Shown here one piece after another: positions 1-15,552 of a stretch of DNA of 40,208 nt; the stretch's first letter is position 1, and every line of letters starts with the position of its first letter. Below the pieces are notes generated by a model, which was given only the letters and a program-made list of their open reading frames with translations, ran no database searches and was not told the origin of the DNA. The translations under genes and the position numbers were made by a program. Source of the stretch: a phage; sequence record QB023162.1, one strand, 5' to 3'.

Positions 1-669
1 TTCTCCCGCTGGTTCGATGCCGCGTTTCAGAAAGCACCGGATGCGGGAACAGGAGTTATTAACCTGTTGGGGGACTTCGCACACTTCGATAGTCTGGATG
101 CGGTTACACCTGAGTCGCGCCATGTGTTGGACGCGGATACGCGCTACCAAAAACTTGTCCGCTACATGATTCGTATGGTCCGCCGTGTTGTTGATATGGC
201 GCTGGTTAAGCATAAGACAGTTAAACTTTTAATCGTTCAAGGAAATCACGACCCTGTAGGCTCTGTATGGCTCGCCGAAATGTTCTGTACATTGTACGAT
301 AACGAACCTCGCGTATTTGTGGACACCTCCCCCGACGTATACAAGATGGTCCAGCACGGGAAAACTACGCTATTCATGCATCATGGACACCGTGCGAGAT
401 TCGACGCCATAGAGTCAGTAATGATTTCTAAATTCCGTAAGGCTTTTGGAGAAAGCACATACAGCTACGCTCATGTAGGGCATCTACATCATCAGAAATT
501 AGTAGAAAGCCGCAATATGGTAGTCGAACAACACCGAACCCTGGCCGCGAAAGATGCTTACGCATCGCGAGGGGGCTGGATGTCAGGCCGTAGCGCAAAT
601 GTAATTACCTATAGCGCCGAATATGGTGAGGTAGCACGTTTAACTATTTCACCGGAGATGCTGGGATGA
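1..669 (+). CDS. calcineurin-like metallophosphoesterase domain protein, 5'-truncated by window edge (SbcD/Mre11- or phosphatase-like)
   Basis: Frame 1 is open from base 1 to the stop at 667..669. Translation carries GDFAHFD, GNHD, HHGH and GHLH motifs in canonical order. Table ORF 67..669 is only its TTG-initiated tail. Confidence 0.6.
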   Translation, partial: FSRWFDAAFQKAPDAGTGVINLLGDFAHFDSLDAVTPESRHVLDADTRYQKLVRYMIRMVRRVVDMALVKHKTVKLLIVQGNHDPVGSVWLAEMFCTLYDNEPRVFVDTSPDVYKMVQHGKTTLFMHHGHRARFDAIESVMISKFRKAFGESTYSYAHVGHLHHQKLVESRNMVVEQHRTLAAKDAYASRGGWMSGRSANVITYSAEYGEVARLTISPEMLG

Positions 670-896
670 CTTCAAAATACAACCGCGCAATGACAAACAC
701 TCACGGCAGCACTATGACTGTAGACGTTTATGATGTGCTACGTGCCTTCGACATCCGTGACCCGGCATTACAGCACGCATTGAAGAAGCTATTATGTATG
801 GGCTTGCGAGGGCACAAAGACACCGGAACAGACTTAGCGGAAGCAATTGAAAGTCTGGAGAAGTTACGAGAGTACCGAAGCAATATTGACGAGTAA
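666..896 (+). CDS. hypothetical protein (76 aa)
   Basis: ORF table. ATGA start/stop overlap with the upstream phosphoesterase ORF. Stop TAA 894..896 is followed directly by a terminator. Confidence 0.45.
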   Translation: MTSKYNRAMTNTHGSTMTVDVYDVLRAFDIRDPALQHALKKLLCMGLRGHKDTGTDLAEAIESLEKLREYRSNIDE

Positions 897-900
897 GAAA

Positions 901-929
901 AAAAGGCCCCTAACGGGGCCTTAGTTTTA
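901..929. terminator. bidirectional rho-independent terminator between convergent genes
   Basis: Stem GGCCCC (905..910), loop TAAC, stem GGGGCC (915..920), then TTAGTTTTA; an A-run on the 5' side gives a U-tract for the minus strand. Confidence 0.6.
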
Positions 930-2093
930 TGCGTAGGTGATACGCTGGATAACGATAGACGACTGGTACCGGTTGCCTGTGGACTGCCCTTCTATACTCT
1001 GGGTAATTGATTCCGGGCCAGATATTTCTGGTGTAACCGCCGTGAGTTCTGCGCGTTTCAGACTGAAAGACATAGCCCCGTTTACCCCCGCCAGAATAGA
1101 GTTAATCTCTACCTGCTGCTCGTTGATAAACTTCTGAATCATAGCCATGTCGTACAGCTTTCCAGAGATGGAGAAGGTGTTAGCCGCGCGGCTACGCTCC
1201 ACAAACGCCACATTAGTATTGCCGAGTTCGAACTGCGCGGACGCGCTGTTGTCGTTGGTGATGGTAAGGCTATCACAACGCAACGGCGTAGAGCCATCGA
1301 ACACGGAAACGTCAACCGAAGAGAACGGCTCATCACCAAAAGTAACAGATGAGAAGTTGGAACCGGTCGGCGGCGTAGTGAGAATCTCCTGACTGCGACC
1401 GATGAATGGGAAGCTGCCAGTTACCATCGCGTTAACAGCCTGTTCGATGGTAAAACCAGAAACTTCCACGCCTTTGGTTAACGTGTACGCGTCAGTACCG
1501 CCGCACTGGCCTTTGTACCAGGTAAGGATAGAGAACGTCTTACACGTGTTACCGGTTTCCAGCGTGTCGCCGGTTTTAGCCTTACTAGTTTTTGTCTCGG
1601 TGGTCAGGGTGTGTTGGATGCCTGCACCAGTAACAACCGTAGCCGTTACTGCAGTAACAATAAATGGTTTTGCGTTATCGCCTGTTAAATCGGTAAATGC
1701 AATCAGGTCGCCTACCCCAACTCCGTCAGTGATAAAACTGCCGGTAGCGCGTGTGAACGTCTTGCCCGCGGGTGCGACGGTAATCGACAGACTGGACAGG
1801 GAAACACCGGATTGCCACGTAGCGCCTAAAGCTCCGGCCAACCAGTCGTCCTGGCTTTTCGAGCTAAGCTCGATGGCGTATTCTCCGCTAACCTGTTTGT
1901 TACCTGTGCGGATGGATGTAGTTTCACGACTACCGTCCAGTTCATTGGAGGTAAGCGTGTCGCGAGTAATAGCCGGAACGCCACCTGTGTTACGCAACGG
2001 TGACCAGACCGGGTTAGTCGGTGTTACGCCCGGGGTGACTTCCGCCACATAGAATTGCGCGGTAGTCGCGCCCTTAAAAGGAGTTGTAGCCAT
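927..2093 (-). CDS. putative major tail protein (388 aa from ATG 2093; table start is GTG 2099)
   Basis: Last large gene of the connector/tail-completion series. Thr/Ser/Gly/Val-rich. SD AGAGG lies 9 nt upstream of ATG 2093. Confidence 0.45.
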   Translation of the reverse strand: MATTPFKGATTAQFYVAEVTPGVTPTNPVWSPLRNTGGVPAITRDTLTSNELDGSRETTSIRTGNKQVSGEYAIELSSKSQDDWLAGALGATWQSGVSLSSLSITVAPAGKTFTRATGSFITDGVGVGDLIAFTDLTGDNAKPFIVTAVTATVVTGAGIQHTLTTETKTSKAKTGDTLETGNTCKTFSILTWYKGQCGGTDAYTLTKGVEVSGFTIEQAVNAMVTGSFPFIGRSQEILTTPPTGSNFSSVTFGDEPFSSVDVSVFDGSTPLRCDSLTITNDNSASAQFELGNTNVAFVERSRAANTFSISGKLYDMAMIQKFINEQQVEINSILAGVNGAMSFSLKRAELTAVTPEISGPESITQSIEGQSTGNRYQSSIVIQRITYA

Positions 2094-2095
2094 AT

Positions 2096-2512
2096 TCACA
2101 GCCTCTTGGTGAATGCAATAAAGTTAATTGACAATGGTCTTTTGGCCCATCCGTTTTCTACAATCAGCGGCCCCAGGCTAACCGATTGAACCTCGGCGCA
2201 GATGTCGTTACGTGAAAATGACTTGCCTGCTTTAAATGCCGTGTTAAGTAAGTCTGCCATTTTATTGATTGGTGCGCTACCTCTCACCGATGCGTAGTTA
2301 ATGTCGACCTGATAAACACCGGCGCGTTGTTCCGTGAAGAACAAATCAGCCTGTTCCGTATCCGCCAGCAACATGTAACTCGCCAGATACGGCGTATCGG
2401 TCGAAGTCGGAGCGTCAATGTTTTCAAGCGCAACCTTGATGCCGTTGGCGGTTCCGAAGGCTACCAGCGGCACGTCAAACGCTTTTGTTAAGTCCTCAAA
2501 GTAGCCCATCAT
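2096..2512 (-). CDS. putative tail terminator / tail-tube joining protein (138 aa)
   Basis: Synteny only: between the gp10-like gene and the putative major tail gene; start/stop overlaps with neighbours. Confidence 0.3.
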   Translation of the reverse strand: MMGYFEDLTKAFDVPLVAFGTANGIKVALENIDAPTSTDTPYLASYMLLADTEQADLFFTEQRAGVYQVDINYASVRGSAPINKMADLLNTAFKAGKSFSRNDICAEVQSVSLGPLIVENGWAKRPLSINFIAFTKRL

Positions 2513-2904
2513 TTCACCTTGTTGGCTTCTTCGTTAATGAGTTGCTGGAAGCGAGACACATTAGTCCTTACCATACCTTGCGGGGCCTGTTGTGACCAGC
2601 CATACTCCAGCCGCTGTATATACGGCAGATTATTTGTCAGTGTGAACTCGTGCCAGTCTGTAGCTGTGTTTATGGCCGCAGTAACACGCTGGATAGTAGC
2701 CGTTCCTTGCGGTGCGCCGTAGGTGGTAGTTTCCTGTGACGGAGTACTGCCAGACGCAAACCAGTTATTTCTCGCACGACCGGTATCGACTGGCGTTGCC
2801 TTTATAATAGCGGAAAACAGCTTGATAGACACCTGACGCATAACCTTCTCAGGATTCTTCTTCGCCTTTTCCACGAACTTAGAGACGTCCAGCGCGAAAC
2901 TCAT
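2509..2904 (-). CDS. HK97 gp10-like tail completion protein (putative)
   Basis: DTGRARNNW motif resembles the DTGxLRNS signature of gp10-family proteins; size 131 aa; overlapping stops/starts on both sides. Confidence 0.45.
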   Translation of the reverse strand: MSFALDVSKFVEKAKKNPEKVMRQVSIKLFSAIIKATPVDTGRARNNWFASGSTPSQETTTYGAPQGTATIQRVTAAINTATDWHEFTLTNNLPYIQRLEYGWSQQAPQGMVRTNVSRFQQLINEEANKVK

Positions 2905-3260
2905 TTTCTCACCTGGATAAAGTATGCCACGACATCATCGTTAACCATCTTCTTCTCGATAGCTACGACGGGCCATTGCTCGCCGCCGAATTGCACCTTG
3001 TCTTCCATCTTAGGAACGACACTGCAATCGGCTTTAACAATCATGTCGCCCGCCTGAATCGTCGTACCGTTTACCAGTCCAACGTTTACCGGAACCGGAA
3101 CGGCCTTCAACGGCAGCACTTCATCGTCGGACCAGACGTACTCACCGAGAACTTCATCCCACGCTTTAGGGCCAGCACGAACAAGAGATACTGTGCTACC
3201 GAATTTGGTTAACAGGCGTGTACCAACGCCTTGCATACGTTTACTAAAGGCGGTGCTCAT
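2901..3260 (-). CDS. putative head closure / head-tail joining protein (119 aa)
   Basis: Synteny and size. SD AGAGAGGG upstream of ATG 3260. Confidence 0.3.
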   Translation of the reverse strand: MSTAFSKRMQGVGTRLLTKFGSTVSLVRAGPKAWDEVLGEYVWSDDEVLPLKAVPVPVNVGLVNGTTIQAGDMIVKADCSVVPKMEDKVQFGGEQWPVVAIEKKMVNDDVVAYFIQVRK

Positions 3261-3370
3261 TCTAGCCCTCTCTTAGTCGAAAGAATGTTGGCTAATTCCT
3301 TACTTGCATCAGACAACCGCTTCTTATGACCGTAACTACGTTTTATTACGCGGCGTTTTTTAACCTCCAT
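3257..3370 (-). CDS. unlisted 37-aa highly basic ORF (MEVKKRRVIKRSYGHKKRLSDASKELANILSTKRGLE)
   Basis: ATG at 3370 overlaps the TAA of the upstream gene (TAATG) and its TGA overlaps ATG 3260 (ATGA); it fills an otherwise empty 109-bp gap. Confidence 0.25.
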   Translation of the reverse strand: MEVKKRRVIKRSYGHKKRLSDASKELANILSTKRGLE

Positions 3371-3984
3371 TACGCGGCCTCCAGTCTCGATATAACCAGT
3401 AATGCTGACGGTGCAGTGCCCCATGCAGTTACGGTAGCCACTTGCGGGTATACGCCGCCGAAGTTGCTTCCGGCGCTATCCCGCATAATCTGAACGGCAA
3501 ATGTCTGGCCCGCGGTGGGGTTAATAACGACGCGAGATTCAATCGGGACTGTGGTGTCCGCGCTTACCAGTTTCGTGGCCGCGGGTGAGCCGTACTGAGC
3601 GCCGTTAAGAAGAATGCGTGATAAAAGGATTGATGTCCCACTAGCACCCGTACGCCCCGCCTGTAACTTGATGCGAACGGCGTAGTTACCCGCGGCGTTG
3701 AATGTAACCAGCCCTGCAGCATTAATCATTACCGGGTTAGACGCGCTTCCCTGGGCAGCACCGAAAGTTATTTGCAATGCTGTGCCCACTGCGGATGGTG
3801 CTTGTGCTACTGTCGACGCGGCACGGAGAACTTCAACCTCTTTAACCCCCGGAGTGGCATAGATAGGCGAGTCAGCCATCTGTGTCATTACCTCGCGCAA
3901 TGCGGCTGGGGTAATAAGTCCGGTGGTATTATCAGGGAGATTTGCGCCGATAAGAGTAAACATCTCTGATTTAGTCTTAGCCAT
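3370..3984 (-). CDS. virion structural protein, function unresolved (204 aa)
   Basis: ORF table; sits in the connector gene series; Ala/Gly/Thr-rich. Confidence 0.35.
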   Translation of the reverse strand: MAKTKSEMFTLIGANLPDNTTGLITPAALREVMTQMADSPIYATPGVKEVEVLRAASTVAQAPSAVGTALQITFGAAQGSASNPVMINAAGLVTFNAAGNYAVRIKLQAGRTGASGTSILLSRILLNGAQYGSPAATKLVSADTTVPIESRVVINPTAGQTFAVQIMRDSAGSNFGGVYPQVATVTAWGTAPSALLVISRLEAA

Positions 3985-3986
3985 TT

Positions 3987-4499
3987 TTAACCCCGGTACA
4001 CATTAAATGAGAAGCCGTTGTTAAGACCGCCGCACAGTAACGGACGTAAGGCGTCGTCAGCAGCGGTAATAGTGGTCGTGGCACCACTGCTGCCGTTGTT
4101 GAAGTATGTTACGGTTACTGCACCTTCTACGCGCTCGGTCTGCACGGAACGCCCATCAGAGTTGGCCCGCACTTCCGTACCTGCGCCATAGGTAACGGCG
4201 GCGATTACCTGCGCAAGAATCACCTGTTTCGGGATGGCATTGTTCGATACAGGGAACCCGTTTAACGTTACACCAGTGCGAGGGTACGCCAGAGACTGTT
4301 CAGCGGATACACGGTGACCGCACATCTGAGGTTCTGCAAGCCCAACATAAGTAGCACCGTTGCGCAGGGCCACCTCTGCGGTGGTATCGTCCGCAGGCAA
4401 CTCCAGACCATAATTAGCCGCTAACGCGCGGGCGTCAGCCAGACTGACGTAACTGTCGGCATTTGGGACTATTGCCCCCGTTTCCACGATTAGCGGCAT
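3987..4499 (-). CDS. putative head-tail connector/adaptor protein (170 aa)
   Basis: Position just downstream of the capsid gene; N-terminus YVSLADARALA resembles gp6-like connector N-termini; SD GAGGA before ATG 4499. Confidence 0.35.
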   Translation of the reverse strand: MPLIVETGAIVPNADSYVSLADARALAANYGLELPADDTTAEVALRNGATYVGLAEPQMCGHRVSAEQSLAYPRTGVTLNGFPVSNNAIPKQVILAQVIAAVTYGAGTEVRANSDGRSVQTERVEGAVTVTYFNNGSSGATTTITAADDALRPLLCGGLNNGFSFNVYRG

Positions 4500-4502
4500 A
4501 AA

Positions 4503-4670
4503 TTATTCCTCTGATTTCGCCCGGCGCTGGCGGCGCGGCGTCTCTTCTTTAGTCGATTCTACCACGGTGCCTTCTGGTGCGAAACGGGCATCTACCACAC
4601 GGAACCCCTGACGGTTATACTCGCGCTTCTGCTCGATGGTAATCGGCATTGGTACGTATTTAATTTCCAC
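4503..4670 (-). CDS. unlisted small ORF (55 aa from GTG 4670, or 48 aa from ATG 4649)
   Basis: SD AGGAGA 7 nt upstream of GTG 4670; stop TAA 4503..4505 sits 4 nt before ATG 4499 of the next gene. Confidence 0.25.
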   Translation of the reverse strand: MEIKYVPMPITIEQKREYNRQGFRVVDARFAPEGTVVESTKEETPRRQRRAKSEE

Positions 4671-4688
4671 TTTAATTTCTCCTAGTAA

Positions 4689-4715
4689 AAAGGGGCCGTA
4701 GCCCCTTTGTTTTTA
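4689..4715. terminator. stem-loop terminator downstream of the major capsid gene
   Basis: AGGGGC-cgta-GCCCCT stem-loop (4691..4706) with T-tract on plus (TTGTTTTT) and U-tract on minus; typical partial terminator after a capsid gene. Confidence 0.5.
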
Positions 4716-4726
4716 CTCCAACCGTA

Positions 4727-5695
4727 TTACTTGTCCGCGTCGGCGATTGCCAGAGTACCGAGGGTGTGTTTGTTCTCAGCAACAGCTTTGTCCCAGTTTG
4801 TCGCGGTGAACAGTTCTGCGTCCAGTGGAGATTTACCGCCGTTGGCAACATCCCAGCTATAGCCTTTCAGTTTCAGGCCGAAGCTGTAATCCGCCTGCCA
4901 GGTGGTCTGGATGCGGGTGTTACCGTTGCTGGTGTCAATGTTGCTGATAATGTCAGAAGCATTGTCAACGATGATGCCGTTTGCAACTACGGACAGGACC
5001 TTAGTCTTGTTCGGAGTACCGGCCTCGTACAGCGCGGGAATGTCAGAGATTACGTAACGCTTGCCGAGAACATCGACAACCATAACGTTACCAGCAACGA
5101 ACAGCTGGTTTGCGTTAGTCAGCGCTTTATCTACCAGCGTGTGATAAGCAGCACCAGTCATGATGTCGGTAATCAGCAGCTGAGACTGGTCGCCGAATTT
5201 AGCGTGGCTGTTGTTCAGCACGTTCAGGGACAGACCCACGGTTGCGGATACGTCGTTAACCAGCGCGGTCTGACCAGATACCGCCGCAACGGCTGCGCCA
5301 ACAGCGGTGTTGAGCTGGTCCGCTAACAGTGCGTCAGAGAAGCCTTCGGAAATAGCACGAATCGCGCTTGCCGGGTCTTCGTTAAGCCAGGTCATTTGCG
5401 CAGGCTCGAACAGTACCGGTCCGAAGCCGCCGGCGACTTTAACGCCTACATGCTCGCCCTGAGTCAGCGCGGTAGCTGCCTGAGACGCGATAGCGGCGTA
5501 ACGGTCAACGCGGCGTTTAGCGGAGGCAATCTGGTTAAAGAAAGACTCACGGGAGAAGTCACCGCGCCATGAAGCGGTAGACAGTACAATTGCGCCACCG
5601 GAGGCGGCGTTAAACTGGTCAGTTTTCTGGCCAAGCAGTTCGATAGTTGTACCGACGATATCGTCGTTATAAACCTTCATATCTGACAGAGACAT
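4727..5695 (-). CDS. major capsid protein
   Basis: 322 aa, immediately downstream of the scaffold gene; SD GAGGA 9 nt before ATG 5695; followed by a terminator. Confidence 0.7.
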   Translation of the reverse strand: MSLSDMKVYNDDIVGTTIELLGQKTDQFNAASGGAIVLSTASWRGDFSRESFFNQIASAKRRVDRYAAIASQAATALTQGEHVGVKVAGGFGPVLFEPAQMTWLNEDPASAIRAISEGFSDALLADQLNTAVGAAVAAVSGQTALVNDVSATVGLSLNVLNNSHAKFGDQSQLLITDIMTGAAYHTLVDKALTNANQLFVAGNVMVVDVLGKRYVISDIPALYEAGTPNKTKVLSVVANGIIVDNASDIISNIDTSNGNTRIQTTWQADYSFGLKLKGYSWDVANGGKSPLDAELFTATNWDKAVAENKHTLGTLAIADADK

Positions 5696-5701
5696 ATTCT
5701 G

Positions 5702-6328
5702 TTATCCTCGTTTGCCGTATTTGGCGTTAAGTTTTTGCTGGATTACGTCCGTACCACCGGCCCCGCCAGTAGAATTTTTGTTACCGGAAGCCCCGCCGCC
5801 GGTTGCTGCATCTGCTTTAATCAGATGCGAAAATGCTTTGTGCTCACGCAGATACTTTTTAAATTGCTCTGCGTCGGTGGTGATGACATTACCGTCCGCA
5901 CCTGTGAACTTGGTCACAACGTCATCGCCGTCAAATTCGGTCTTTACCATCATAGCGATGATATCTGCTGCGCTCTCATCAATCAACATGCCAGACAACT
6001 GGCTGATAACTGATTTACGTTCTGCGCCGAGGATACGCTCAGCCATTTTGCTAATCTTACCGTCTTTCTCGGCGAGTACTGGCTCATACTGACTGCGCAA
6101 CGTTTTCTCGAATGCCTCAAGTTCGCCGTTCTGTTTTGCGCGTTCCTGTTCGGCTTTCAGCTTCGCATCTGCGGCTTCTTTCGCAGCAGCGGCGGCAGCT
6201 TTCTTTTCAGACAAGAGTTTCTCGTTGTTAGCTTTAAGACCGGATACCAGCTCGTCAACTTCTTCTTTGGTAAACGTGGTCTTAGTCTCTTGTTGTTCGA
6301 TAGTTTCGTCTTTCACTTCTTCGCTCAT
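5702..6328 (-). CDS. scaffolding protein (208 aa from ATG 6328; table start is TTG 6379)
   Basis: Ala/Lys/Glu-rich coiled-coil composition; position between spanins and capsid gene; SD AGGGGA 6 nt before ATG 6328. Confidence 0.55.
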   Translation of the reverse strand: MSEEVKDETIEQQETKTTFTKEEVDELVSGLKANNEKLLSEKKAAAAAAKEAADAKLKAEQERAKQNGELEAFEKTLRSQYEPVLAEKDGKISKMAERILGAERKSVISQLSGMLIDESAADIIAMMVKTEFDGDDVVTKFTGADGNVITTDAEQFKKYLREHKAFSHLIKADAATGGGASGNKNSTGGAGGTDVIQQKLNAKYGKRG

Positions 6329-6407
6329 CAGTATGTCCCCTGGACGTTGGAATCCGGGCCACCCGGATTTACATGTCAAGAATAAATTATTCCAACATGC
6401 AAGGCAA

Positions 6408-6671
6408 CTATTCCAGAATATTCCTCACGTAATCCTGCAACATGAACACTTTCAGACGCAGTTTCCGTACACATTCAGCGTTCTGAACGTCGATAGCTAA
6501 ATCCTCGTCCGCGTCGCTACTTGGCGCGGCCAGTTTGCACGGTGGCTGCATCATCATCGTATCCGGGGATGGAATTGGCGTTTGCGACGGCGCGGGACTT
6601 AAGCTGCACGCGCTCAGGGTCAAAAGTGCACACGCTGCGACCAGGCGTTTTAATGTACTTAACGACTTCAC
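6408..6671 (-). CDS. Rz1: o-spanin (Rz1-like outer-membrane lipoprotein), GTG start
   Basis: Signal peptide with lipobox LTLSAC, then a Pro-rich segment (SPAPSQTPIPSP). Starts inside Rz in another frame and extends past its stop. SD CAGAGG before GTG 6671. Confidence 0.7.
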   Translation of the reverse strand: MKSLSTLKRLVAACALLTLSACSLSPAPSQTPIPSPDTMMMQPPCKLAAPSSDADEDLAIDVQNAECVRKLRLKVFMLQDYVRNILE

Positions 6672-6903
6672 GTGTAATTACCTCTGATTTCGTCTTGCCT
6701 TCGTTATCAGCGGCTGCGGCCTTCGACTCATCCTGCTGCTGCCGTTGTGTTTTCTTCGCTAACTCAGCCTGTGCTTTCTGCTGTTGCTGTGAAACGAGAT
6801 TACCCCGACCTTCGTTCCAGCCGCTGCGATACTGGTAGATGCCGTGTGCGTAGGCCAGGACTATGAAACATGCCCCCGCTACGACAGTTGCTTTAAGATT
6901 CAT
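6517..6903 (-). CDS. Rz: i-spanin (Rz-like)
   Basis: N-terminal transmembrane segment followed by a charged, Gln-rich coiled-coil periplasmic domain; SD GAAAGGGG before ATG 6903; overlaps Rz1. Confidence 0.7.
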   Translation of the reverse strand: MNLKATVVAGACFIVLAYAHGIYQYRSGWNEGRGNLVSQQQQKAQAELAKKTQRQQQDESKAAAADNEGKTKSEVITREVVKYIKTPGRSVCTFDPERVQLKSRAVANANSIPGYDDDAATVQTGRAK

Positions 6904-6927
6904 GTTTCCCCTTTCTCGATAAGTAAA

Positions 6928-6947
6928 GCCCCGCCTTAAAGCGGGGC
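6928..6947 (-). promoter_or_regulatory. GC stem-loop about 25 nt upstream of the Rz start
   Basis: GCCCCGC-cttaaa-GCGGGGC inverted repeat; on the minus strand it is followed by TTTACTT, so it is at most a weak terminator and possibly a 5' mRNA hairpin. Confidence 0.3.
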
Positions 6948-7223
6948 GCTAGTCCTTATCATTTAAACATAGAAACGGCGTAATCTCAGTAAACCCGTTA
7001 CTTTTTACACAAGCAATAGAGTACAGCCCTTCCGAACGCGTCAGCGTAACTACACTCGGACTTAACGTCCGGCTCCGTTACCTGCCCGCGCCGCGGTCGC
7101 TTGTTCATACTTCACAAGCTCAGGTGGAGCTTATCATATTTTTAGTGAAAAGTCAACTATTCGAATAGTGTATTCCAACATTTACAATTGAGTGGAATAA
7201 CTGGAATAATCACAGGCACTAAA

Positions 7224-7241
7224 AAGCCCCTTTCGGGGCTT
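7224..7241 (-). terminator. rho-independent terminator after the 153-aa gene
   Basis: AAGCCCC-tttc-GGGGCTT stem-loop directly after stop 7246..7248; U-tract TTTAGTG on the minus strand. Confidence 0.55.
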
Positions 7242-7245
7242 CAGT

Positions 7246-7707
7246 TTATTCTGGCTTAGTTACCTTCGCCGCTTTACTGACAGCCTCTACACCCTCGGCA
7301 TCGGTGACTTTAACGAAGTATCCACCTACCGCATTAACCGTCAGAGACAAAGCCTCTTCCGGGGCGTTTACCACTTCCTTACCGTCTTTGTACCAGGTCA
7401 GAGCATACGGCGCTTTGCCCGCCTTAACTTCGACAGCGATAGTTGCGCTGCCGTCTACCAGTTCAGCGTCCTGCGGTTGCACCGAGAAATACACATCGCC
7501 AGCATCAGCCAGATACGGAATTTCATAAAGCATGCCCGCCGCGGGTAACGCAATACCGGTTTTATCTGCAAACGGCATATCGTCTACGGGTGTACCGAGT
7601 ACACTTTCATCATCAATAAACACCACGTTCTCACCAGAGCCAGACACGCGGGCGTACTTGACTACGCGACGTGAAGGTACATCAGTTACTTTGAAAAAGC
7701 CCATCAT
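7246..7707 (-). CDS. hypothetical head-module protein (153 aa)
   Basis: ORF table; start overlaps the stop of the head morphogenesis gene; SD AGGGGA before the ATG pair at 7707/7704. Confidence 0.4.
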   Translation of the reverse strand: MMGFFKVTDVPSRRVVKYARVSGSGENVVFIDDESVLGTPVDDMPFADKTGIALPAAGMLYEIPYLADAGDVYFSVQPQDAELVDGSATIAVEVKAGKAPYALTWYKDGKEVVNAPEEALSLTVNAVGGYFVKVTDAEGVEAVSKAAKVTKPE

Positions 7708-8750
7708 TAATCCCCTTTCAGATAATCAGCAACACGTTTATCGAGTTCCGCCATCTGCTTAAGCGTGAGCGGATTCCCGAAACCATCTACAGATATTACG
7801 CGAAACTCTTCCGGCGATATACCGCTGTTACGGAAAATCTTACCTCGCACCGGGCCGAGCGCCTGGTCCTGAAACCACGCCGGTTGTTGTTTAAGGAACT
7901 CGTAGTAAGTGGTGTCTGCGCTTACCTGAGTGCCACCCTCCGCGCCTTTAGCCGCGCGTTTTGCGCCTTTATCGAGGAAGTCGAACTCGGAACTTATTAC
8001 GGGTGCGGTGGTACTTCGACAGTTCGGATGGGCGGGGGGCATCGGCCCTTTACCAATTTCCCACGTCATCCCATCCCTGGCTCTGCAAATTGTACTGGTA
8101 CGGCTGTCCAGCGTTGCCACCCATTCGTACTTCTCGATGATGTCGTCGTTCTGGCGGTACGTCTCATTACGCGCTTCGTTGGACACGTGGGACAGCGCGG
8201 TACGGATTACCGTAGCGGCGTATTTCTCTGATATGTCAGCCAACCCACCTTTACCGGCCACTTCTGTAACAATCTGCCGTGTTGTCTTACCCTGAACAAA
8301 GCCCATCTTAACGCCAGTCACGAGGCGCGCGACTTCGGTTTCGCCCCAACCTGACATCAGCTTAGTGAAGTCAACTGGCTTGTCGCTCAACGATAACGGT
8401 TGAAACTCGGCCGCGGCCCACACCTGTTCGGCGGTAGGAGTAACGAATTCCGCGTCTACGTTGGCTGTCAGGGTCTTCGCATTCCACTCAGCCTCATACG
8501 CCGCCAGTTCCTTAAGGTCTTCGGTCAGCTTTGTCCGCCAGTCACCAGTAAGCCCCGTCAGAGCTTCTTCAAGGTCACGTAACAGTTTATTCAGCCGTGC
8601 GGTGCTGCGGCCGTCGTCGCCGAATAGCAGCACCTGCCGTTTGATTTCGTCCCGCATTTCCTGAATGAATGGTGCGAGGTCTTTTACTTCACCGGATGCG
8701 GCGCGTTGCAGCCAAATCTGGTGGCTGATTAGTGATGTCAGTAAGCTCAT
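7707..8750 (-). CDS. head morphogenesis protein, SPP1 gp7/Mu F-like (start re-assigned to ATG 8750; table start is TTG 8807)
   Basis: About 347 aa, in the usual position next after the portal gene; SD AGGAGG 4 nt upstream of ATG 8750. Confidence 0.55.
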   Translation of the reverse strand: MSLLTSLISHQIWLQRAASGEVKDLAPFIQEMRDEIKRQVLLFGDDGRSTARLNKLLRDLEEALTGLTGDWRTKLTEDLKELAAYEAEWNAKTLTANVDAEFVTPTAEQVWAAAEFQPLSLSDKPVDFTKLMSGWGETEVARLVTGVKMGFVQGKTTRQIVTEVAGKGGLADISEKYAATVIRTALSHVSNEARNETYRQNDDIIEKYEWVATLDSRTSTICRARDGMTWEIGKGPMPPAHPNCRSTTAPVISSEFDFLDKGAKRAAKGAEGGTQVSADTTYYEFLKQQPAWFQDQALGPVRGKIFRNSGISPEEFRVISVDGFGNPLTLKQMAELDKRVADYLKGD

Positions 8751-8793
8751 ATGCCCTCCTGTGGTATCGCCAGTGTAACGCATAAAAATAATA

Positions 8794-8826
8794 TTTGCAG
8801 ACACCAATATAATAGGGTACTATTCA
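8794..8826 (+). promoter_or_regulatory. class A promoter with operator copy O1
   Basis: TTTGCA (8794..8799), then TATAAT (8808..8813) fused to palindrome ATAATAG-GGTA-CTATTCA (8809..8826); 38 nt upstream of ATG 8852. Confidence 0.5.
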
Positions 8827-8851
8827 GTTAACTTAAACAGGAGGCTGAAAA

Positions 8852-9055
8852 ATGTATGCAATTTGCGAAGTAGTTCCAGAGTTCGATGAAGAGTTCGACG
8901 GCGACCTGTACCGGGTTAAAAAGGTTCTTCAGGTTTTCCCTGACGTAAACTCTGCTGATAGAGCACTATACGTGTTTGACCCCGCAAGATACGGGGACTA
9001 CGACACTGTTCTGAGGGTTGTCCATGAGGATTACATAAACACAAGATTCCGTTGA
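8852..9055 (+). CDS. small acidic hypothetical protein (67 aa), antisense moron inside the late operon
   Basis: Own promoter and operator, SD CAGGAGG, and its own terminator; opposite strand to the flanking portal and head genes. Confidence 0.5.
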   Translation: MYAICEVVPEFDEEFDGDLYRVKKVLQVFPDVNSADRALYVFDPARYGDYDTVLRVVHEDYINTRFR

Positions 9056-9060
9056 AAACT

Positions 9061-9087
9061 AAGGCCCCAAACGGGGCCTTTTTCTTT
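9061..9087. terminator. bidirectional terminator
   Basis: AAGGCCCC-aaac-GGGGCCTT stem-loop with TTTTCTTT on plus and a U-rich tract on minus; lies between the moron stop and the portal stop. Confidence 0.6.
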
Positions 9088-10567
9088 ACCCCTGTTGCTG
9101 CGCCGACTGTGGAATTTCTCCCGCCACCTGAGCAACAGCACCCAACGGCAGCGGTGCATCCTCGATAGCGTTCTGAATGTCCTCGTCTGTCCAGTCAGTT
9201 ACCCCCGCTTTACGCAACGCAGCATAATAAGCGGTGGCTGGCAGCAAGCCGGCGTTAATGTCCGCCATCCACTGAGCGCGGTCCTGAGCTGTCATAGGTT
9301 GCAGGAAGAACTCCATATTCAGCTTGAACTCGATTTCAGTACCGTCACTAAGCCCCAGCATCGCTGCTACCCAGCGCAGCGCATCGGTATACGCCATGCT
9401 TACGTTGCGCGCTATTGTAGCCATAACGGACGTGTCAGCGCCGCGTTGCAGGCGGGCCGATTCTGCGGTGATTTGCTGCGTCGGGGTGATAAGCTGCGCG
9501 CCAATCTGGATGGCCTGATTCTCTTTATCCAGCATATTCTGTTTGGCGAGGTTGTTCTCCCCTGCCTGAACCAGAAACGCATTGCCGCCGTACCCGATGT
9601 TATGGCCAGAACGTGACCCCATACGCACTCCGTGCGGGTTGGCTTCTTTCCATTGCTCCATGCTCATGTTCTCACCAGGGGAGATGAACAGAGTCGGTTG
9701 GCCTACAACGAAGCTGGACTCCTCATTGTCCGCGCTGTTACGGAAGTGCCCGATATTAAGTTCAGCCAACGGCAACAAAGGGGCGTCGTCAGGGGTTGAG
9801 TCGTTATTCCCCGCGCCAATAAATGTGAAAGGAATCACCCCTACAGGAATATTACCGAGTTTCGGGAAGATTTCGATATAGCCACCTTCCATCAGTGCAC
9901 CTTTCTGGTTAAAGCGGTACAGACGCTGGCGATACTGGCCTTCGAAAATATCAAGAACGCGGTATTGCTCGCCGTAGTTGGGGCTGAACTCATCCGTGCC
10001 ATCGGTGTACTCGTATTCCTCACGCAATACAACCATAACCACACGATTAACAGACCCGACGCGCTGGATACGCCAGTTGATGATGTTCTCTGCGGTGTAG
10101 AAAGCGATTGTCGGGTTTAGTAAACCCTCGTTTTGCTCCGCCATAGTAGCGACGTCTACCGCGGGTGCATCTACAAGCAAGCCGCCGCGACCAACAGCAT
10201 CAATCTCATACAGAGTATCCTGTGCGTGCTGCCACAGGCCAACGCCCGACCCGTCACAGTTAGTGGTCAGGTATTCCATCTGAGACGGAATAATCATCTC
10301 GGGGTCTTTGCGCATTACGCTGCCGACCATGCCTGAAAGCGTTCGCTTGGTGAAGTTGTAGCAAATTGCCCCCGCTTCGTATTCAGCCTGACGCTGGCGA
10401 CCGTAAACCTGGTCCGGCTCATTCTTACCGACGTCACGTAGATACGATGTCAGGTCACCAGAAAGCGCATGTCGCACCTTCTGCCACTTAGGGAAATACT
10501 CTTCGTACTGGCGGTGGTGGGTTTTAACGTTCTGCCCTTGCCCTGCGTTAATGTTTGCGGAAACCAT
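9086..10567 (-). CDS. portal protein
   Basis: 493 aa immediately downstream of the large terminase; SD AGAGGA before ATG 10567. Confidence 0.8.
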   Translation of the reverse strand: MVSANINAGQGQNVKTHHRQYEEYFPKWQKVRHALSGDLTSYLRDVGKNEPDQVYGRQRQAEYEAGAICYNFTKRTLSGMVGSVMRKDPEMIIPSQMEYLTTNCDGSGVGLWQHAQDTLYEIDAVGRGGLLVDAPAVDVATMAEQNEGLLNPTIAFYTAENIINWRIQRVGSVNRVVMVVLREEYEYTDGTDEFSPNYGEQYRVLDIFEGQYRQRLYRFNQKGALMEGGYIEIFPKLGNIPVGVIPFTFIGAGNNDSTPDDAPLLPLAELNIGHFRNSADNEESSFVVGQPTLFISPGENMSMEQWKEANPHGVRMGSRSGHNIGYGGNAFLVQAGENNLAKQNMLDKENQAIQIGAQLITPTQQITAESARLQRGADTSVMATIARNVSMAYTDALRWVAAMLGLSDGTEIEFKLNMEFFLQPMTAQDRAQWMADINAGLLPATAYYAALRKAGVTDWTDEDIQNAIEDAPLPLGAVAQVAGEIPQSAQQQG

Positions 10568-10578
10568 TTGTTGTCCTC

Positions 10579-11829
10579 TTAAAGTGCGAAAGTCACCGGG
10601 ATGTTGATTACTGGTTTAACCACAGGCATCTCGTAAACTACAGGATAGCCGAGAGCATCCGCCATATGGTCAATGATGCCGTCTTTAGCTGGCTCTCCGT
10701 TATCATCGTATGCCTGCTGCTCCAGCGTCTTCGCTATCTCGGGGCATAAGTGGTCATTAACCCACAGCTTACCTTTTTCCAGCGCAGTATTCACCGCTAA
10801 AACACGGTCTTTAACTGGGGGGTTGGCGGATTTAGCGCGAACATCGAAACCGGCCTGCTGGAGTAACGCAATATCTGAGATTGATGCCGAGTTGGTTTTG
10901 CGGTTCTTGCCGCTGGCATCCGGGTAAACGACGATGCGGTGGCCTTGCGACTTCCACTTCTCAGTAATCACACGCACGGTGTCCGGCGTATCAAACAGAC
11001 CTTTCAGTTCTGATACCGCGTGCCAGCCGTCTTTACGTTGCACATACACGGCGCTGGCGTTCTTAGTAACGTTGAAGTCCTGCCCGATGTATAGCGTGTC
11101 GCCTGGTTGGATTGTCTCTTTGCTGCGGTGCTTGCGACGGTCATACGCATAATACACGCTGCCGGATGTCAGGTTAACGAACTCACCGTTCAGATATGCG
11201 TTAGTCAGTTGCGCAGGGTAAGTCTCTGTCAGTGAGCTAATGTAATCCGGCGGCAGGAACCGCGCATTCTCGTGAGAGGACGCCTGCACCATCGAGTAAC
11301 TTGGCGTCGGATTCTCTTTGAACTTGGCGTAAACGAACTTGAACCCTTCCGGCGTCGTGGTGACAGAGATGTGGTTAGTTACGCCCGGGATAACCAGACG
11401 CATACGGGCCACAATTTTGTTCCACGCCAGCTCGGCTTTCTCACGGCTCAATACGTCCAGTTCATCCACGACCGCGGCGGCGATTTTGAAACCCACAATC
11501 GAACCGGGGTTATCCATCGAACGGCAGATAACGGTCCCGAGCACCGTCTTACCGCGAGTAACCACGACTTCTTTGTCGCCAGATTTAACCAGCACATCGA
11601 GGCCGAGCAGGTTAGCGGCTTCCTCAAATGTCGGGTAGAAGATGTCACGGATAGCCGGGTATGTCGGGCCGAAGTAACCCAGGCGCGTACCTGGATGCTT
11701 GAGCATAAACGTAAGCAGGTCCAGACAGCCGACGAAGGTCTTACCGCTGCCAAAGCCTCCGACATATGCCTTATATTTGTTATCACAATTTAGGAACAGT
11801 GCCTGCGGGGCAGATAACTGAATACTCAT
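10579..11829 (-). CDS. terL: terminase large subunit
   Basis: Walker A GGFGSGKT near the N-terminus, C-terminal nuclease-type acidic residues, 416 aa; ATGA overlap with the upstream gene. Confidence 0.9.
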   Translation of the reverse strand: MSIQLSAPQALFLNCDNKYKAYVGGFGSGKTFVGCLDLLTFMLKHPGTRLGYFGPTYPAIRDIFYPTFEEAANLLGLDVLVKSGDKEVVVTRGKTVLGTVICRSMDNPGSIVGFKIAAAVVDELDVLSREKAELAWNKIVARMRLVIPGVTNHISVTTTPEGFKFVYAKFKENPTPSYSMVQASSHENARFLPPDYISSLTETYPAQLTNAYLNGEFVNLTSGSVYYAYDRRKHRSKETIQPGDTLYIGQDFNVTKNASAVYVQRKDGWHAVSELKGLFDTPDTVRVITEKWKSQGHRIVVYPDASGKNRKTNSASISDIALLQQAGFDVRAKSANPPVKDRVLAVNTALEKGKLWVNDHLCPEIAKTLEQQAYDDNGEPAKDGIIDHMADALGYPVVYEMPVVKPVINIPVTFAL

Positions 11830-12371
11830 TCCCCTACCTCGCCCATGTTCGTTGTTACGATTTTACCTACAGGCTCCGCGACACTGAAAATAATCTCAGT
11901 CGGTGCTGTTTCTTCGGTGGATTCAACTGGTTTCTCTTTGCCGAGGCCCAGCTTAGCGGCAGCGAACGTAGCGGAGATGCCCGCGGCCCCTGTCTCGGTG
12001 AAGTACGCCTCTTCCAGCGCCTGCGCCGTTTCGTATGCTTCTGCAAATGCGGGAATCTCACGCAACCACAGCTTAATAATCGGGATAGTGACGCCGATGT
12101 GTAAGGCAAAGCGTGCCAGTGACGGCGGTTTATCCTGAATCAGCGGGCGTTCGTCACCTTTGGACGTAGGTACGAGCTCCCATGACGTGCGGTCGAAGAA
12201 CTCGATTAACGCGTCGCAATAGTCCGGGTCCCACAACGCGGCGGAATTACGGGATGATTGATAAAGGCTCTGTTTACCGCGCGGTCGTTTACGGCGACGG
12301 TTTGCGCTAACAGCTTCTTCATGTGCAGCTTGCACCACCTCTGGCGATGGCTGCTTGAGTTTCAGCTTCAT
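11826..12371 (-). CDS. terS: putative terminase small subunit (start ATG 12371; table start is GTG 12410)
   Basis: Directly upstream of and coupled to terL; basic N-terminus; SD AGGGGA 4 nt before ATG 12371. Confidence 0.5.
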   Translation of the reverse strand: MKLKLKQPSPEVVQAAHEEAVSANRRRKRPRGKQSLYQSSRNSAALWDPDYCDALIEFFDRTSWELVPTSKGDERPLIQDKPPSLARFALHIGVTIPIIKLWLREIPAFAEAYETAQALEEAYFTETGAAGISATFAAAKLGLGKEKPVESTEETAPTEIIFSVAEPVGKIVTTNMGEVGE

Positions 12372-12411
12372 AGAATCCCCTTGCATATGCGTCTGACCAT
12401 CAGAGCGCACC

Positions 12412-12466
12412 AGACGCGCCCTACGCGTCTAAATGGATTATATAAGGGGATTGGGCGGGATGTACA
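12412..12466 (-). promoter_or_regulatory. candidate late promoter with 5' leader hairpin upstream of terS
   Basis: Minus strand: TGTACA, 18-nt spacer, TATAAT (12437..12466), then a 7-bp GC hairpin AGACGCG/CGCGTCT (12412..12430) at the predicted transcript 5' end. Confidence 0.3.
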
Positions 12467-12469
12467 GAA

Positions 12470-12489
12470 AAGCCCTCCGTAGAGGGCTT
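12470..12489 (-). terminator. terminator closing the leftward early small-gene block
   Basis: AGCCCTC-cgta-GAGGGCT stem-loop; on the minus strand it is followed by TTTTCTG. Confidence 0.45.
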
Positions 12490-12650
12490 GTTGGCGTGTT
12501 ATTCGGTTATATCGCCGTCGTCTACCAGTGCGATTGGTATTCTGACTTCGCCGTTGAATGTTTCTGCACACCAGAACTTCTCGCACTGAGTGACGCTGAA
12601 AACATCGAGTTATGACGTAGCCCCAGTTTTCCAGTAGACAGTTAACTTTT

Positions 12651-12887
12651 TCATTCCCCGCTCTCCTCTTTAGCAATGCGTTGCTCTGTTTTAGTGATAC
12701 CTCGGCGCGTGAATAGCACCGGGCTGGTCTTAACGTGCGTCATCAGACGGTTGTTATAAATTACGTGGCGCTCACAATCAACGTCTTTGCTGTACTTGGC
12801 AATCGTCATTTCGTTGATGCCAGTTCGCCGGCATGCCTCCGCCATCGTGCCAAATTCTTTTATAAGGTTCGGAATGCTGGTAATCAT
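12651..12887 (-). CDS. small HTH-like DNA-binding protein (78 aa from ATG 12887; table start is GTG 12911)
   Basis: Segment MAEACRRTGINEMTIAKYS looks helix-turn-helix; SD GAGGAA upstream of ATG 12887. Confidence 0.4.
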   Translation of the reverse strand: MITSIPNLIKEFGTMAEACRRTGINEMTIAKYSKDVDCERHVIYNNRLMTHVKTSPVLFTRRGITKTEQRIAKEESGE

Positions 12888-13054
12888 CCTAAGAAATTCC
12901 TCGTTGTCCACATCGCATTCTGATATTTGTTATCGCGGTCCTGTACTACGGCAATCATGTTTCCACGCTGCACAAGACAGAAGTGACGTTGTTGCTCGCC
13001 GTTGTATCGACGCCAGATTGCTTCTTCGATTGCTGCGTTAATGTCACTGAACAT
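12884..13054 (-). CDS. unlisted 56-aa ORF
   Basis: ATG 13054; its TGA overlaps ATG 12887 of the next gene (ATGA); weak SD. Confidence 0.25.
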   Translation of the reverse strand: MFSDINAAIEEAIWRRYNGEQQRHFCLVQRGNMIAVVQDRDNKYQNAMWTTRNFLG

Positions 13055-13304
13055 ATCCGATACCCCACATAACTAACACCCCAACCGCTACACCAATAAG
13101 AATTGATACTGTTGTATTCGTCCACGCCCGCGGGCTACGCAAAGCCTCGGCGTTCTCCATAATGTCGCGGACACGCGTTAAGTGCTCAATCTCCAGTCTT
13201 GCGGTGGTCAGTTCCTGAGTCGCTTTTGAATACTTACCGTTAATCTTATCAAGCGCCTTCTTAAGGTCTTTGTTGTTCTTCTTGAGTTGTTCAATCTGTT
13301 CCAT
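13044..13304 (-). CDS. coiled-coil protein with C-terminal transmembrane anchor (86 aa)
   Basis: ORF table; N-terminal heptad-like charged region and C-terminal hydrophobic stretch ILIGVAVGVLVMWGIGY. Confidence 0.4.
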   Translation of the reverse strand: MEQIEQLKKNNKDLKKALDKINGKYSKATQELTTARLEIEHLTRVRDIMENAEALRSPRAWTNTTVSILIGVAVGVLVMWGIGYVQ

Positions 13305-13306
13305 AA

Positions 13307-13489
13307 CTACCCCACTATCTCATCGCCTAACCACGCCGTTTCTCGTATATCGTTGACCACACAAGCGGCGTGCTCACGGCTAATTGCAAAAATGTAGAAA
13401 CTAAACTTCTTCCCGTCGGCGTCGATGTGGTTAACCGAGTAGGGTTTCCACAGGACGCCATCTATAACTACTGGCTCAGGCGCTTTCAC
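13307..13489 (-). CDS. hypothetical protein (60 aa, GTG start)
   Basis: ORF table; no ATG or SD, so the start is uncertain. Confidence 0.3.
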   Translation of the reverse strand: MKAPEPVVIDGVLWKPYSVNHIDADGKKFSFYIFAISREHAACVVNDIRETAWLGDEIVG

Positions 13490-13628
13490 TCTTCATGCGC
13501 TCAAGTAACAACTTAAACGCCTCCAGTTGAAACTCACCGTTAATTGACAATTGCCCGCCTAACGTCTGTTTCTCTGACTCAAGCACCATAATACGGCGCT
13601 CAAGTGATGCGATTGTGATTTTAGGCAT
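13476..13628 (-). CDS. unlisted 50-aa ORF
   Basis: ATG 13628 overlaps the TAA of the upstream gene; SD GAGGG; the translation has no internal stop. Confidence 0.25.
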   Translation of the reverse strand: MPKITIASLERRIMVLESEKQTLGGQLSINGEFQLEAFKLLLERMKSESA

Positions 13629-14162: not shown

Positions 14163-14195
14163 CTTCTATACTCCGTTCTCGTTGTCGATGAAGTA

Positions 14196-14224: not shown

Positions 14225-14253
14225 CTAGTCATTACAGAAAATAGATAAAAAAA

Positions 14254-15546: not shown

Positions 15547-15552
15547 GATGAA

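What the first reader, a model, noticed from the sequence alone, without database searches (positions are those of the whole stretch)
1..929. Window start and end fall in the same reading frame: probable split gene and circularly permuted complete genome
ORF 39747..40208 ends exactly on a codon boundary at the last base, and frame 1 is open from base 1 to 669. Joined end to start they give one 377-aa protein with the phosphoesterase motifs in canonical order (DxH, then GDxxD-like, GNHD, HHGH, GHLH). The minus-strand late module would then run without a break from the putative major tail gene (ending 927) across the island to the G chaperone (start 39190). Together this suggests the 40,208 bp are a whole genome linearised inside a gene.
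Basis: inference. Interest (0 to 1): 0.45.

Follow-up and report, generated by a model that had tools for sequence, protein, structure and literature searches.

The report
Circular phage genome cut inside a gene
The window is a complete genome of a common E. coli tailed phage (genus Kagunavirus) written out from an arbitrary starting point inside a phosphoesterase gene, so the "split gene" comes from how the sequence was linearised and is ordinary.

Summary

- **Uninterrupted elsewhere:** the joined protein is a single ORF in 1957 phage records, best identity 97.9%. Its exact sequence is called as one gene on three independent public contigs. One of these is 99.57% identical to the window, without gaps, over 11.1 kb spanning the junction.
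- **Ends adjoin:** in two complete circular relatives, BUCT789 and Bas71, window bases 40208 and 1 align to adjacent bases. The rest of the window is collinear around the whole circle.
- **Complete:** all core phage genes are present and there is no terminal repeat.
- **One domain:** the break lies in a confidently modelled helix between metallophosphoesterase motifs I and II of a single domain. The nearest folds are PolD-DP1, Mre11 and SbcD.
- **Gene order:** tail tube, then a three-gene opposite-strand island, then the tail chaperone, as in the family.

GenBank record ULINTec2 is cut inside the same gene. Nothing here is biologically new. Permutation of the packaged virion DNA (headful packaging) is inferred from relatives, not shown.

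The parts
39747..40208 (+). 5' part of the split gene: codons 1-154 of the HTH-metallophosphoesterase. Contains the N-terminal three-helix HTH, a beta-hairpin middle domain, motif I (D130-x-H132 at 40134..40142) and the first half of helix 148-165.
   Evidence: frame; continuous in 1957 phage records; model; D130 and H132 invariant.
1..669 (+). 3' part of the split gene: codons 155-376 plus TGA. Contains motif II GDxxH (70..90), motif III GNHD (241..252), motif IV HHGH (379..390) and motif V GHLH (478..489).
39355..39681 (+). First gene of the plus-strand island: a 108-aa protein with a hydrophobic, signal-peptide-like N-terminus. Function unknown.
   Evidence: sequence; 96% identical to Bas71_0023; same neighbour on 3 independent contigs; no Pfam match.
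666..896 (+). Last gene of the island: a 76-aa ORF whose start overlaps the stop of the phosphoesterase gene (ATGA). Function unknown.
   Evidence: (98.7% identical to Bas71_0021).
903..922 (.). G+C-rich hairpin (8 bp stem, 6 G-C pairs) with T runs on both strands. A terminator-like site usable in both directions between the convergent island and the tail tube gene.
   Evidence: This is a consensus scan only; the count in the region does not exceed shuffles.
927..2099 (-). Tail tube (major tail) protein gene, 390 aa.
   Evidence: PF18906, E 3.8e-36; 88% identical to Bas71_0020.
38774..39190 (-). Tail assembly chaperone G, 138 aa.
   Evidence: PF08748, E 6e-9; 99% identical to Bas71_0025.
38415..38768 (-). 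Tail assembly chaperone T reading frame, -1 relative to G. Probably the frameshift extension of G.
   Evidence: 100% identical to Bas71_0026; sequence at the end of G; PF23812 Phage_TAC_18 on the equivalent ORF. The frameshift itself is inferred.
10579..12410 (-). Terminase small (11826..12410) and large (10579..11829) subunit genes. This is the conventional start point for writing genomes of this group and the likely neighbourhood of the real packaging start.
   Evidence: TerS 90% identical to Bas71_0001; Terminase_6N/6C. The pac location is inferred.

Best explanation
The 40,208 bases are a complete, circularly closed assembly of a Kagunavirus phage (Guernseyvirinae, Sarkviridae; host E. coli). 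The assembler or depositor opened the circle at an arbitrary base, and it is written in the reverse orientation to most GenBank relatives. The opening point falls between codons 154 and 155 of a conserved 376-aa gene.

That gene encodes an N-terminal helix-turn-helix, a small beta-hairpin domain, and a calcineurin-like metallophosphoesterase domain. The phosphoesterase domain most resembles the nucleic-acid-processing members of that superfamily (PolD-DP1, Mre11, SbcD). The gene is intact in the real replicating molecule, so the split comes from how the record was written.

The gene sits in a three-gene island (108-aa ORF, phosphoesterase, 76-aa ORF). The island is transcribed on the opposite strand to the surrounding tail genes and lies between the tail tube gene and the tail assembly chaperone gene. 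This arrangement is standard for the genus.

**Shown:** ORF continuity, exact adjacency of the two ends, whole-circle collinearity, a complete gene set, and a single folded domain across the break.

**Inferred:** the virion DNA is linear, terminally redundant and circularly permuted through headful packaging, which is why assemblies close into a circle with no natural end. Also inferred: the protein is a metal-dependent nuclease or phosphodiesterase acting on DNA early in infection.
For: - **Continuity.** The joined ORF is 1131 nt, 376 aa. tblastn gives 2017 phage records, 1957 of them covering at least 80% in one piece, with 12 at 95-99% identity. PHROG 704 is matched end to end (residues 4-375, E 1.5e-162). 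The 3-kb junction is a single megablast piece at about 89% identity in, for example, MN927226 and OR525704.
- **Adjacency.** Window 1 and 40208 align to BUCT789 21981 and 21982, and to Bas71 12878 and 12879. The exact 45-nt junction lies inside two IMG/VR contigs. The exact protein is on 3 Logan contigs with the same neighbours. Contig ERR15093692_2339 is 99.57% identical with 0 gaps over 11,147 bp across the junction.
- **Completeness.** Present are TerS, TerL, portal, scaffold, major capsid protein, adaptors, tail tube, chaperones, tape measure, tail tip, tailspike, helicases, DNA polymerase, SSB, exonuclease, primase-helicase, holins, endolysin and spanins. One-way similarity to BUCT789 is about 78%. 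Relatives are 40.6-45 kb. The window has no terminal repeat.
- **Packaging.** Relatives are deposited as circular and start at many different points. A Jerseyvirus was predicted to package by headful (PMC9409062). No termini were found for Kagunavirus fBC-Eco01 (PMC9825357).
Against: - No reads are available. Circular closure of this particular assembly, and the absence of a fixed physical end at 40208|1, are inferred from relatives rather than observed.
- At 40,208 bp the genome is at the very bottom of the genus range. Several small accessory genes of Bas71, including a DNA methyltransferase, are absent. These gaps lie far from the junction.
- The biochemical role is untested. Pfam Metallophos scores fall below the gathering cut-offs, sequence searches against PDB are insignificant, and no SbcC/Rad50 partner is annotated in the relatives examined or seen among the window genes scanned.
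Confidence: 0.95

Rival explanations
1. The window ends are true physical termini of the virion DNA (a cos site or defined blunt ends inside the phosphoesterase gene). The gene would be reconstituted only after the injected DNA circularises.
For: Both this window and GenBank ULINTec2 are opened inside the same gene, and both on a codon boundary. This could hint at a non-random break region.
Against: - The two break points are 408 nt apart.
- The window has no terminal repeat or overlap.
- A contig 99.57% identical to the window runs straight through the point and ends elsewhere.
- Relatives start at a dozen or more different positions and are deposited as circular.
- PhageTerm found no termini in a Kagunavirus (PMC9825357) and headful packaging in a Jerseyvirus (PMC9409062).
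- The gene is 2.8% of the genome, so one or two hits among more than 100 arbitrarily opened records is expected by chance.
Confidence: 0.02
2. The window is an incomplete genome or a fragment of something larger, with sequence missing between the two ends. On this reading the in-frame join is fortuitous.
For: The genome is shorter (40.2 kb) than most relatives (41-45 kb, PMC11990801).
Against: - The ends map to adjacent bases in two complete genomes.
- The joined protein has the same length as homologues (376 aa) and aligns without indels.
- The exact joined sequence exists as one gene in independent assemblies.
- The size difference is explained by internal accessory-gene differences.
Confidence: 0.01
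3. The two partial ORFs are two separate genes (an HTH regulator and a phosphoesterase) that merely happen to be in phase.
For: GenBank ULINTec2 annotates the C-terminal fragment as a separate 'transcriptional regulator' CDS. Some sources name the protein 'winged helix-turn-helix domain-containing protein'.
Against: - Motif I lies before the break and motifs II-V after it, and all are invariant.
- The break is inside a helix of one compact domain modelled at pLDDT about 98.
- 4616 cluster representatives have the same full-length architecture.
- The ULINTec2 annotation follows from that record being cut in the same gene.
Confidence: 0.01

Closest known systems
Kagunavirus phages (Guernseyvirinae, Sarkviridae), e.g. 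Escherichia phage BUCT789 (PQ999132.1), K1G (NC_027993), LotteLoewe_Bas71 (PQ850615.1)
   Same: Same gene order around the whole circle, and the same island of 108-aa ORF, phosphoesterase and 76-aa ORF between the tail tube and tail chaperone genes. About 89% of the window aligns to BUCT789, with about 78% one-way similarity.
   Different: Below 95% similarity to any INPHARED record searched, so it is a different species-level lineage there, although a contig 99.6% identical over the 11.1 kb compared exists in Logan. The tailspike C-terminus and capsid module differ from Bas71, and the methyltransferase and several small ORFs are missing. It is written in the opposite orientation and opened inside a gene.
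GenBank MZ997838.1, Escherichia phage ULINTec2 (a record cut in the same gene)
   Same: A 'complete genome' record linearised inside the same phosphoesterase gene. Residues 1-290 are at the record end and 291-376 at the record start, and the ORF is continuous without gaps once circularised.
   Different: The break is 408 nt further downstream. That record annotates the 3' fragment as a 'transcriptional regulator' and leaves the 5' fragment unannotated. It carries a polynucleotide kinase and a dNMP kinase instead of the 76-aa ORF.
Mre11/SbcD nucleases and the PolD DP1 proof-reading exonuclease (calcineurin-like metallophosphoesterase superfamily)
   Different: Only 11-17% identity. Sequence searches against PDB are not significant (E 0.1). 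No Rad50/SbcC-like partner gene is annotated in the relatives examined or seen among the window genes scanned. There is an extra N-terminal HTH and a beta-hairpin domain. Activity has never been tested for this phage family as far as the searched literature shows.
Circular assemblies of headful-packaging phages with genes spanning contig ends
   Same: [quoted passage not shown] That is the situation here.
   Different: None of substance. Here the trimmed overlap is exact, with no duplicated or lost base.

Membership tests
Complete circular(ised) phage genome record | The last and first bases are adjacent in independent related sequences, with no gain or loss. | tested here: met
   adjacent bases in BUCT789 and Bas71; contig 99.57% identical, gapless across the junction.
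Complete circular(ised) phage genome record | Collinear with complete relatives around the whole circle, with a full set of core genes. | tested here: met
   collinearity; gene inventory.
Complete circular(ised) phage genome record | Read pairs or long reads bridging end to start in this assembly. | not testable with these tools
   No reads are available.
Headful-packaged, terminally redundant, circularly permuted virion DNA | No fixed termini, a pac-type coverage pattern and terminal redundancy in virion DNA. | not testable with these tools
   Indirect evidence only. Jerseyvirus SeF1 was predicted headful (PMC9409062). No termini were found for Kagunavirus fBC-Eco01 (PMC9825357). Relatives are deposited circular with varied start points. 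TerL matches Terminase_6N/6C, which does not decide the question.
Genus Kagunavirus (Guernseyvirinae) | At least about 70% nucleotide similarity over the genome to members of the genus, with shared synteny. | tested here: met
   (about 78% one-way to BUCT789, which is classified as Kagunavirus). The one-way BLAST estimate is approximate, not a VIRIDIC value.
Calcineurin-like metallophosphoesterase superfamily | Five conserved metal-binding motifs in order: DxH, GDxx[DH], GNH[DE], H, GHxH. | tested here: met
   D130, H132, G178, D179, N236, H237, H282, G314 and H317 are invariant; H182 and H315 are at least 90% conserved.
Calcineurin-like metallophosphoesterase superfamily | Beta-sandwich phosphoesterase fold. 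| tested here: met
Calcineurin-like metallophosphoesterase superfamily | Score above the Pfam gathering threshold for PF00149 or PF12850. | tested here: not met
   18.5 against 21.5 bits and 22.8 against 27 bits. This is a divergent member; a 94%-identical homologue carries a precomputed PF12850 hit (P0078).
Mre11/SbcD nuclease family | Significant sequence or profile similarity to Mre11/SbcD. | tested here: inconclusive
Mre11/SbcD nuclease family | A partner Rad50/SbcC ATPase encoded alongside. | tested here: not met
   No such gene appears in the annotated relatives, in the tblastn comparison of Bas71 genes against the window, or among the 8 window proteins scanned against Pfam. Not every window ORF was scanned.
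Mre11/SbcD nuclease family | Mn-dependent exo- or endonuclease activity on DNA. | not testable with these tools
   This requires biochemistry.

The most novel reading that the evidence does not exclude
The split itself holds nothing new. The most novel reading still open concerns the gene that is split. This HTH-metallophosphoesterase is conserved in an opposite-strand island inside the tail gene block of Guernseyvirinae. It belongs to a family of more than 4,600 clusters at 50% identity, found across Escherichia, Klebsiella, Salmonella, Vibrio and Campylobacter phages. It could be an uncharacterised stand-alone phage nuclease with a role of its own, for example host-DNA or defence-related nucleic-acid processing, or a DP1-like proof-reading partner of the phage polymerase, rather than a generic 'DNA repair exonuclease'. 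A much less likely reading is that the two records cut in this gene reflect a real packaging-related break region.
Probability: 0.12. Interest if true: 0.4.

Novelty: already known. Interest (0 to 1): 0.07.

Why it matters
The value is practical.

- **Annotation.** The window should be treated as circular. Otherwise the phosphoesterase gene is lost or mis-annotated, as happened in GenBank ULINTec2: there the 3' fragment is called a 'transcriptional regulator' and the 5' fragment is left unannotated.
- **Re-orientation.** The record should be rewritten to start at the small terminase gene (reverse complement, starting near window 12410) for comparison with relatives.
- **Other findings in this window.** The window can be read as one small virulent Kagunavirus genome, which sets the context for any other finding in it.

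No open biological question is touched by the split.

Tried and rejected
P0001 (95% identical, and identical around the break) was used instead for that search and for the structure model.
- phmmer of the single sequence against PDB gave only a meaningless E 0.44 hit.
- NCBIfam gave nothing useful.
- Pfam phosphoesterase models score below their gathering cut-offs.
- The N-terminal HTH is only hinted at by sequence (GerE E 0.05-0.14). It is supported mainly by the three-helix model.
- Promoter and terminator scans around the island found no more sites than shuffled controls. Only the 903..922 hairpin is convincing by eye.
- Literature searches for 'Jerseyvirinae' with 'terminally redundant' and for 'phosphoesterase' with 'Kagunavirus' found nothing. 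No paper in the searchable library gives experimentally mapped Kagunavirus termini.
- I considered whether the coincidence with ULINTec2 marks a physical end. I rejected this because the breaks are 408 nt apart, a near-identical contig reads through the point, and chance expectation is adequate.

Full report
**1. The observation**

The last 462 bases of the window (39747..40208) start with ATG and form 154 codons with no stop, ending exactly on a codon boundary. Frame 1 is open from base 1 to a TGA at 667..669. Joined end to start the two pieces give 1131 nt, which is 376 aa plus the stop codon. In random sequence of this composition a 376-codon open frame has a probability of about 3e-8. The window has no exact terminal repeat of 5-399 nt.

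**2. Is it one gene?**

Yes.

- tblastn of the joined protein against 50,697 phage records finds 2017 records. In 1957 of them a single piece covers at least 80% of the query. The best matches are Kagunavirus records at 95-98% identity over residues 1-376.
- PHROG 704 ('DNA repair exonuclease') is matched from residue 4 to 375 with E 1.5e-162.
- The collection of 5.8 billion protein clusters holds 2509 relatives at E<=1e-5. The best 120 are almost all 376 aa long; the exceptions (406 and 411 aa) are calls from upstream start codons. All 120 are 93-95% identical to the query.
- The library of representatives at 50% identity holds 4616 clusters at E<=0.001. Nearly all of those listed are 360-420 aa long and align across the position of the break.
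- The exact joined 376-aa sequence is itself on record (P0271) on three Logan contigs, called as one gene.

**3. Is anything missing between the two ends?**

No.

- blastn of the window against the complete circular genome of Escherichia phage BUCT789 (40,771 bp) aligns window 1..898 to 21981..21084 and window 35442..40208 to 26748..21982. Window bases 1 and 40208 therefore correspond to adjacent bases.
- The same holds for LotteLoewe_Bas71, at 12878/12879.
- A 3-kb junction query aligns as one piece over its full length to several phages at about 89% identity.
- The exact 45-nt junction lies inside two IMG/VR contigs.
- Most directly, Logan contig ERR15093692_2339 (39,891 bp) is 99.57% identical to the window over 11,147 bp with no gaps, and that stretch spans the junction.

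**4. Is it a whole genome?**

Yes, as far as comparison can show. The window is collinear, in reverse orientation, with BUCT789 and Bas71 all the way round the circle. It is collinear in the same orientation with ULINTec2.

tblastn of all 82 Bas71 proteins against the circularised window finds the following:

- *Packaging and head:* small and large terminase, portal, head morphogenesis protein, scaffold, adaptors.
- *Tail:* tail terminator, tail tube, both chaperone frames, tape measure, distal tail proteins, central tail protein, tailspike N-terminus.
- *Replication:* helicase, resolvase, DNA polymerase, SSB, exonuclease, helicase-primase.
- *Lysis:* holins, endolysin, spanins.

The major capsid protein is of a different type from that of Bas71. 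It is present at 4727..5695(-) (PF20036, E 1.4e-104), as in BUCT789.

One-way similarity is about 78% to BUCT789 and 67-68% to Bas71 and ULINTec2. That is genus-level relatedness to Kagunavirus (taxonomy). The BASEL paper gives 41-44 kb for these phages (PMC11990801), and several records are 40.6-40.8 kb, so 40,208 bp is small but not anomalous. The absent genes are small accessory ORFs and a DNA methyltransferase, all far from the junction.

**5.

- 927..2099(-) is a tail tube protein (PF18906, E 3.8e-36).
- 38774..39190(-) is a tail assembly chaperone (PF08748, E 6e-9).

On the circle these two are separated only by a plus-strand island: a 108-aa ORF (39355..39681), the phosphoesterase (39747..669) and a 76-aa ORF (666..896). 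A G+C-rich hairpin at 903..922 follows. The same order appears in the annotated relatives and on three independent contigs. The content downstream of the phosphoesterase varies between phages: the 76-aa ORF here, a polynucleotide kinase and a dNMP kinase in ULINTec2 and K1G, and an HNH endonuclease in NTEC3.

**6. One domain across the break**

In alignments of 53 and 98 diverse homologues, D130, H132, G178, D179, N236, H237, H282, G314 and H317 are invariant, and H182 and H315 are at least 90% conserved. Motif I therefore lies in the end-of-window piece and motifs II-V in the start-of-window piece, with 49 residues between D130 and D179.

An AlphaFold2 model was built on P0001, which is 95% identical overall and identical in sequence around the break. 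Its mean pLDDT is 93.4 and its pTM 0.81. Residues 120-376 score at least 94, and the break (154|155) falls inside helix 148-165. The model also shows an N-terminal three-helix bundle (8-44) and a beta-hairpin plus helix (61-104).

- Foldseek against PDB returns phosphoesterases throughout its listed matches, led by T. maritima Mre11, Rv0805 and PolD DP1.
- Sequence evidence is weaker. Pfam Metallophos and Metallophos_2 score below their gathering cut-offs. A profile search of PDB puts T. maritima Mre11 first, but at E 0.11; that alignment does run through motifs I and II across the break.

I therefore file the protein in the calcineurin-like metallophosphoesterase superfamily, since the motif and fold tests are met. 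Its likeliest activity is that of the nucleic-acid-processing members. I do not file it as an Mre11/SbcD family member. Similarity is not significant by sequence, and no Rad50/SbcC partner is annotated in the relatives examined or seen among the window genes scanned. No paper in the searchable library addresses its function.

**7. What the split means**

The simplest account is that a phage genome assembled into a circle and was then written out from an arbitrary base.

- Relatives are deposited as circular.
- Relatives begin at many different points. The gene sits at record positions ranging from about 3.8 kb to about 42 kb in different records.
- For the subfamily, PhageTerm predicted headful packaging in Jerseyvirus SeF1. 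The same paper notes that circularly permuted assemblies leave genes spanning the contig ends (PMC9409062).
- For the Kagunavirus fBC-Eco01, PhageTerm found no termini (PMC9825357).

These points support a terminally redundant, permuted virion DNA, but that remains an inference for this window.

**8. A parallel case**

GenBank MZ997838.1 (ULINTec2, 'complete genome', linear) is cut inside the same gene, 408 nt further downstream. Residues 1-290 map to 39946..40815 and residues 291-376 to 1..258, and the ORF is continuous without gaps once circularised. That record annotates 1..261 as a 'transcriptional regulator' and leaves the other fragment unannotated.

The gene is 2.8% of the genome and more than 100 Kagunavirus-type records exist, so one or two such cuts are expected by chance. 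The contig 99.6% identical to the window ends at yet another place. I therefore do not read this coincidence as a physical terminus.

**9. Verdict**

The feature comes from how the sequence was linearised, in a member of a well-known phage genus. Novelty: already known. Interest: low. The residual interest lies in the uncharacterised but very widespread HTH-phosphoesterase family, not in the split.

Noticed in passing
L005 (GenBank MZ997838.1, ULINTec2) 1..261 and 39908..40815: This deposited 'complete genome' is cut inside the same phosphoesterase gene. The 3' fragment is annotated as a 'transcriptional regulator' and the 5' 870 nt are left unannotated. Circularised, the ORF is intact (376 aa, no gaps).
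   Followed up: yes
window 38415..39190 (-): The tail chaperone G ends ...TCG GAA AAG TAA, and the T frame (100% identical to Bas71_0026) is -1 relative to it. Bas71 annotates T as a separate CDS from a CTG. A G-T programmed frameshift at GAAAAG is likely but not canonical, and I did not analyse it.
   Followed up: partly
window 4727..5695 (-): The major capsid protein (PF20036 Gp13-like, E 1.4e-104) has no tblastn match to the Bas71 capsid protein but matches BUCT789 and ULINTec2. This is a capsid-module swap within the genus. BUCT789 labels this gene 'tail protein' and the scaffold gene 'major capsid protein', which are probably mis-annotations.
   Followed up: partly
window 29113..31257 (-): The 714-aa tailspike shares only its N-terminal 147 or so residues with the Bas71 tailspike, and window 29108..30886 has no match in BUCT789. 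The receptor-binding domain has been exchanged, which implies a different host glycan specificity.
   Followed up: no
window 39355..39681 (+): The 108-aa first gene of the island begins MRKLVLALGFMSFAAFGSPCEQ, which looks like a signal peptide. It is conserved at 96% with Bas71, has no Pfam family, and is called a 'putative immunity protein' or 'glycoprotein precursor' in some records. It may be an exported or superinfection-related protein.
   Followed up: no
window 666..896 (+) and equivalent positions in relatives: The slot downstream of the phosphoesterase is variable: a 76-aa ORF here and in Bas71, a polynucleotide kinase/phosphatase plus a dNMP kinase in ULINTec2 and K1G, and an HNH homing endonuclease in NTEC3 and SCS92.
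   Followed up: partly
window 27299..27520 region, compared with Bas71 25525..26322: The DNA methyltransferase found between the helicase and the resolvase in Bas71 and ULINTec2 is absent from the window, as it is from BUCT789. This is one reason for the small genome size.
   Followed up: partly
L006 (Logan ERR15093692_2339, 39,891 bp): A contig 99.57% identical to the window over the 11.1 kb compared exists in a public sequencing run. It is linearised 16 nt after the stop of the phosphoesterase gene. It may be the same phage lineage as the window and could supply reads for terminus analysis.
   Followed up: partly
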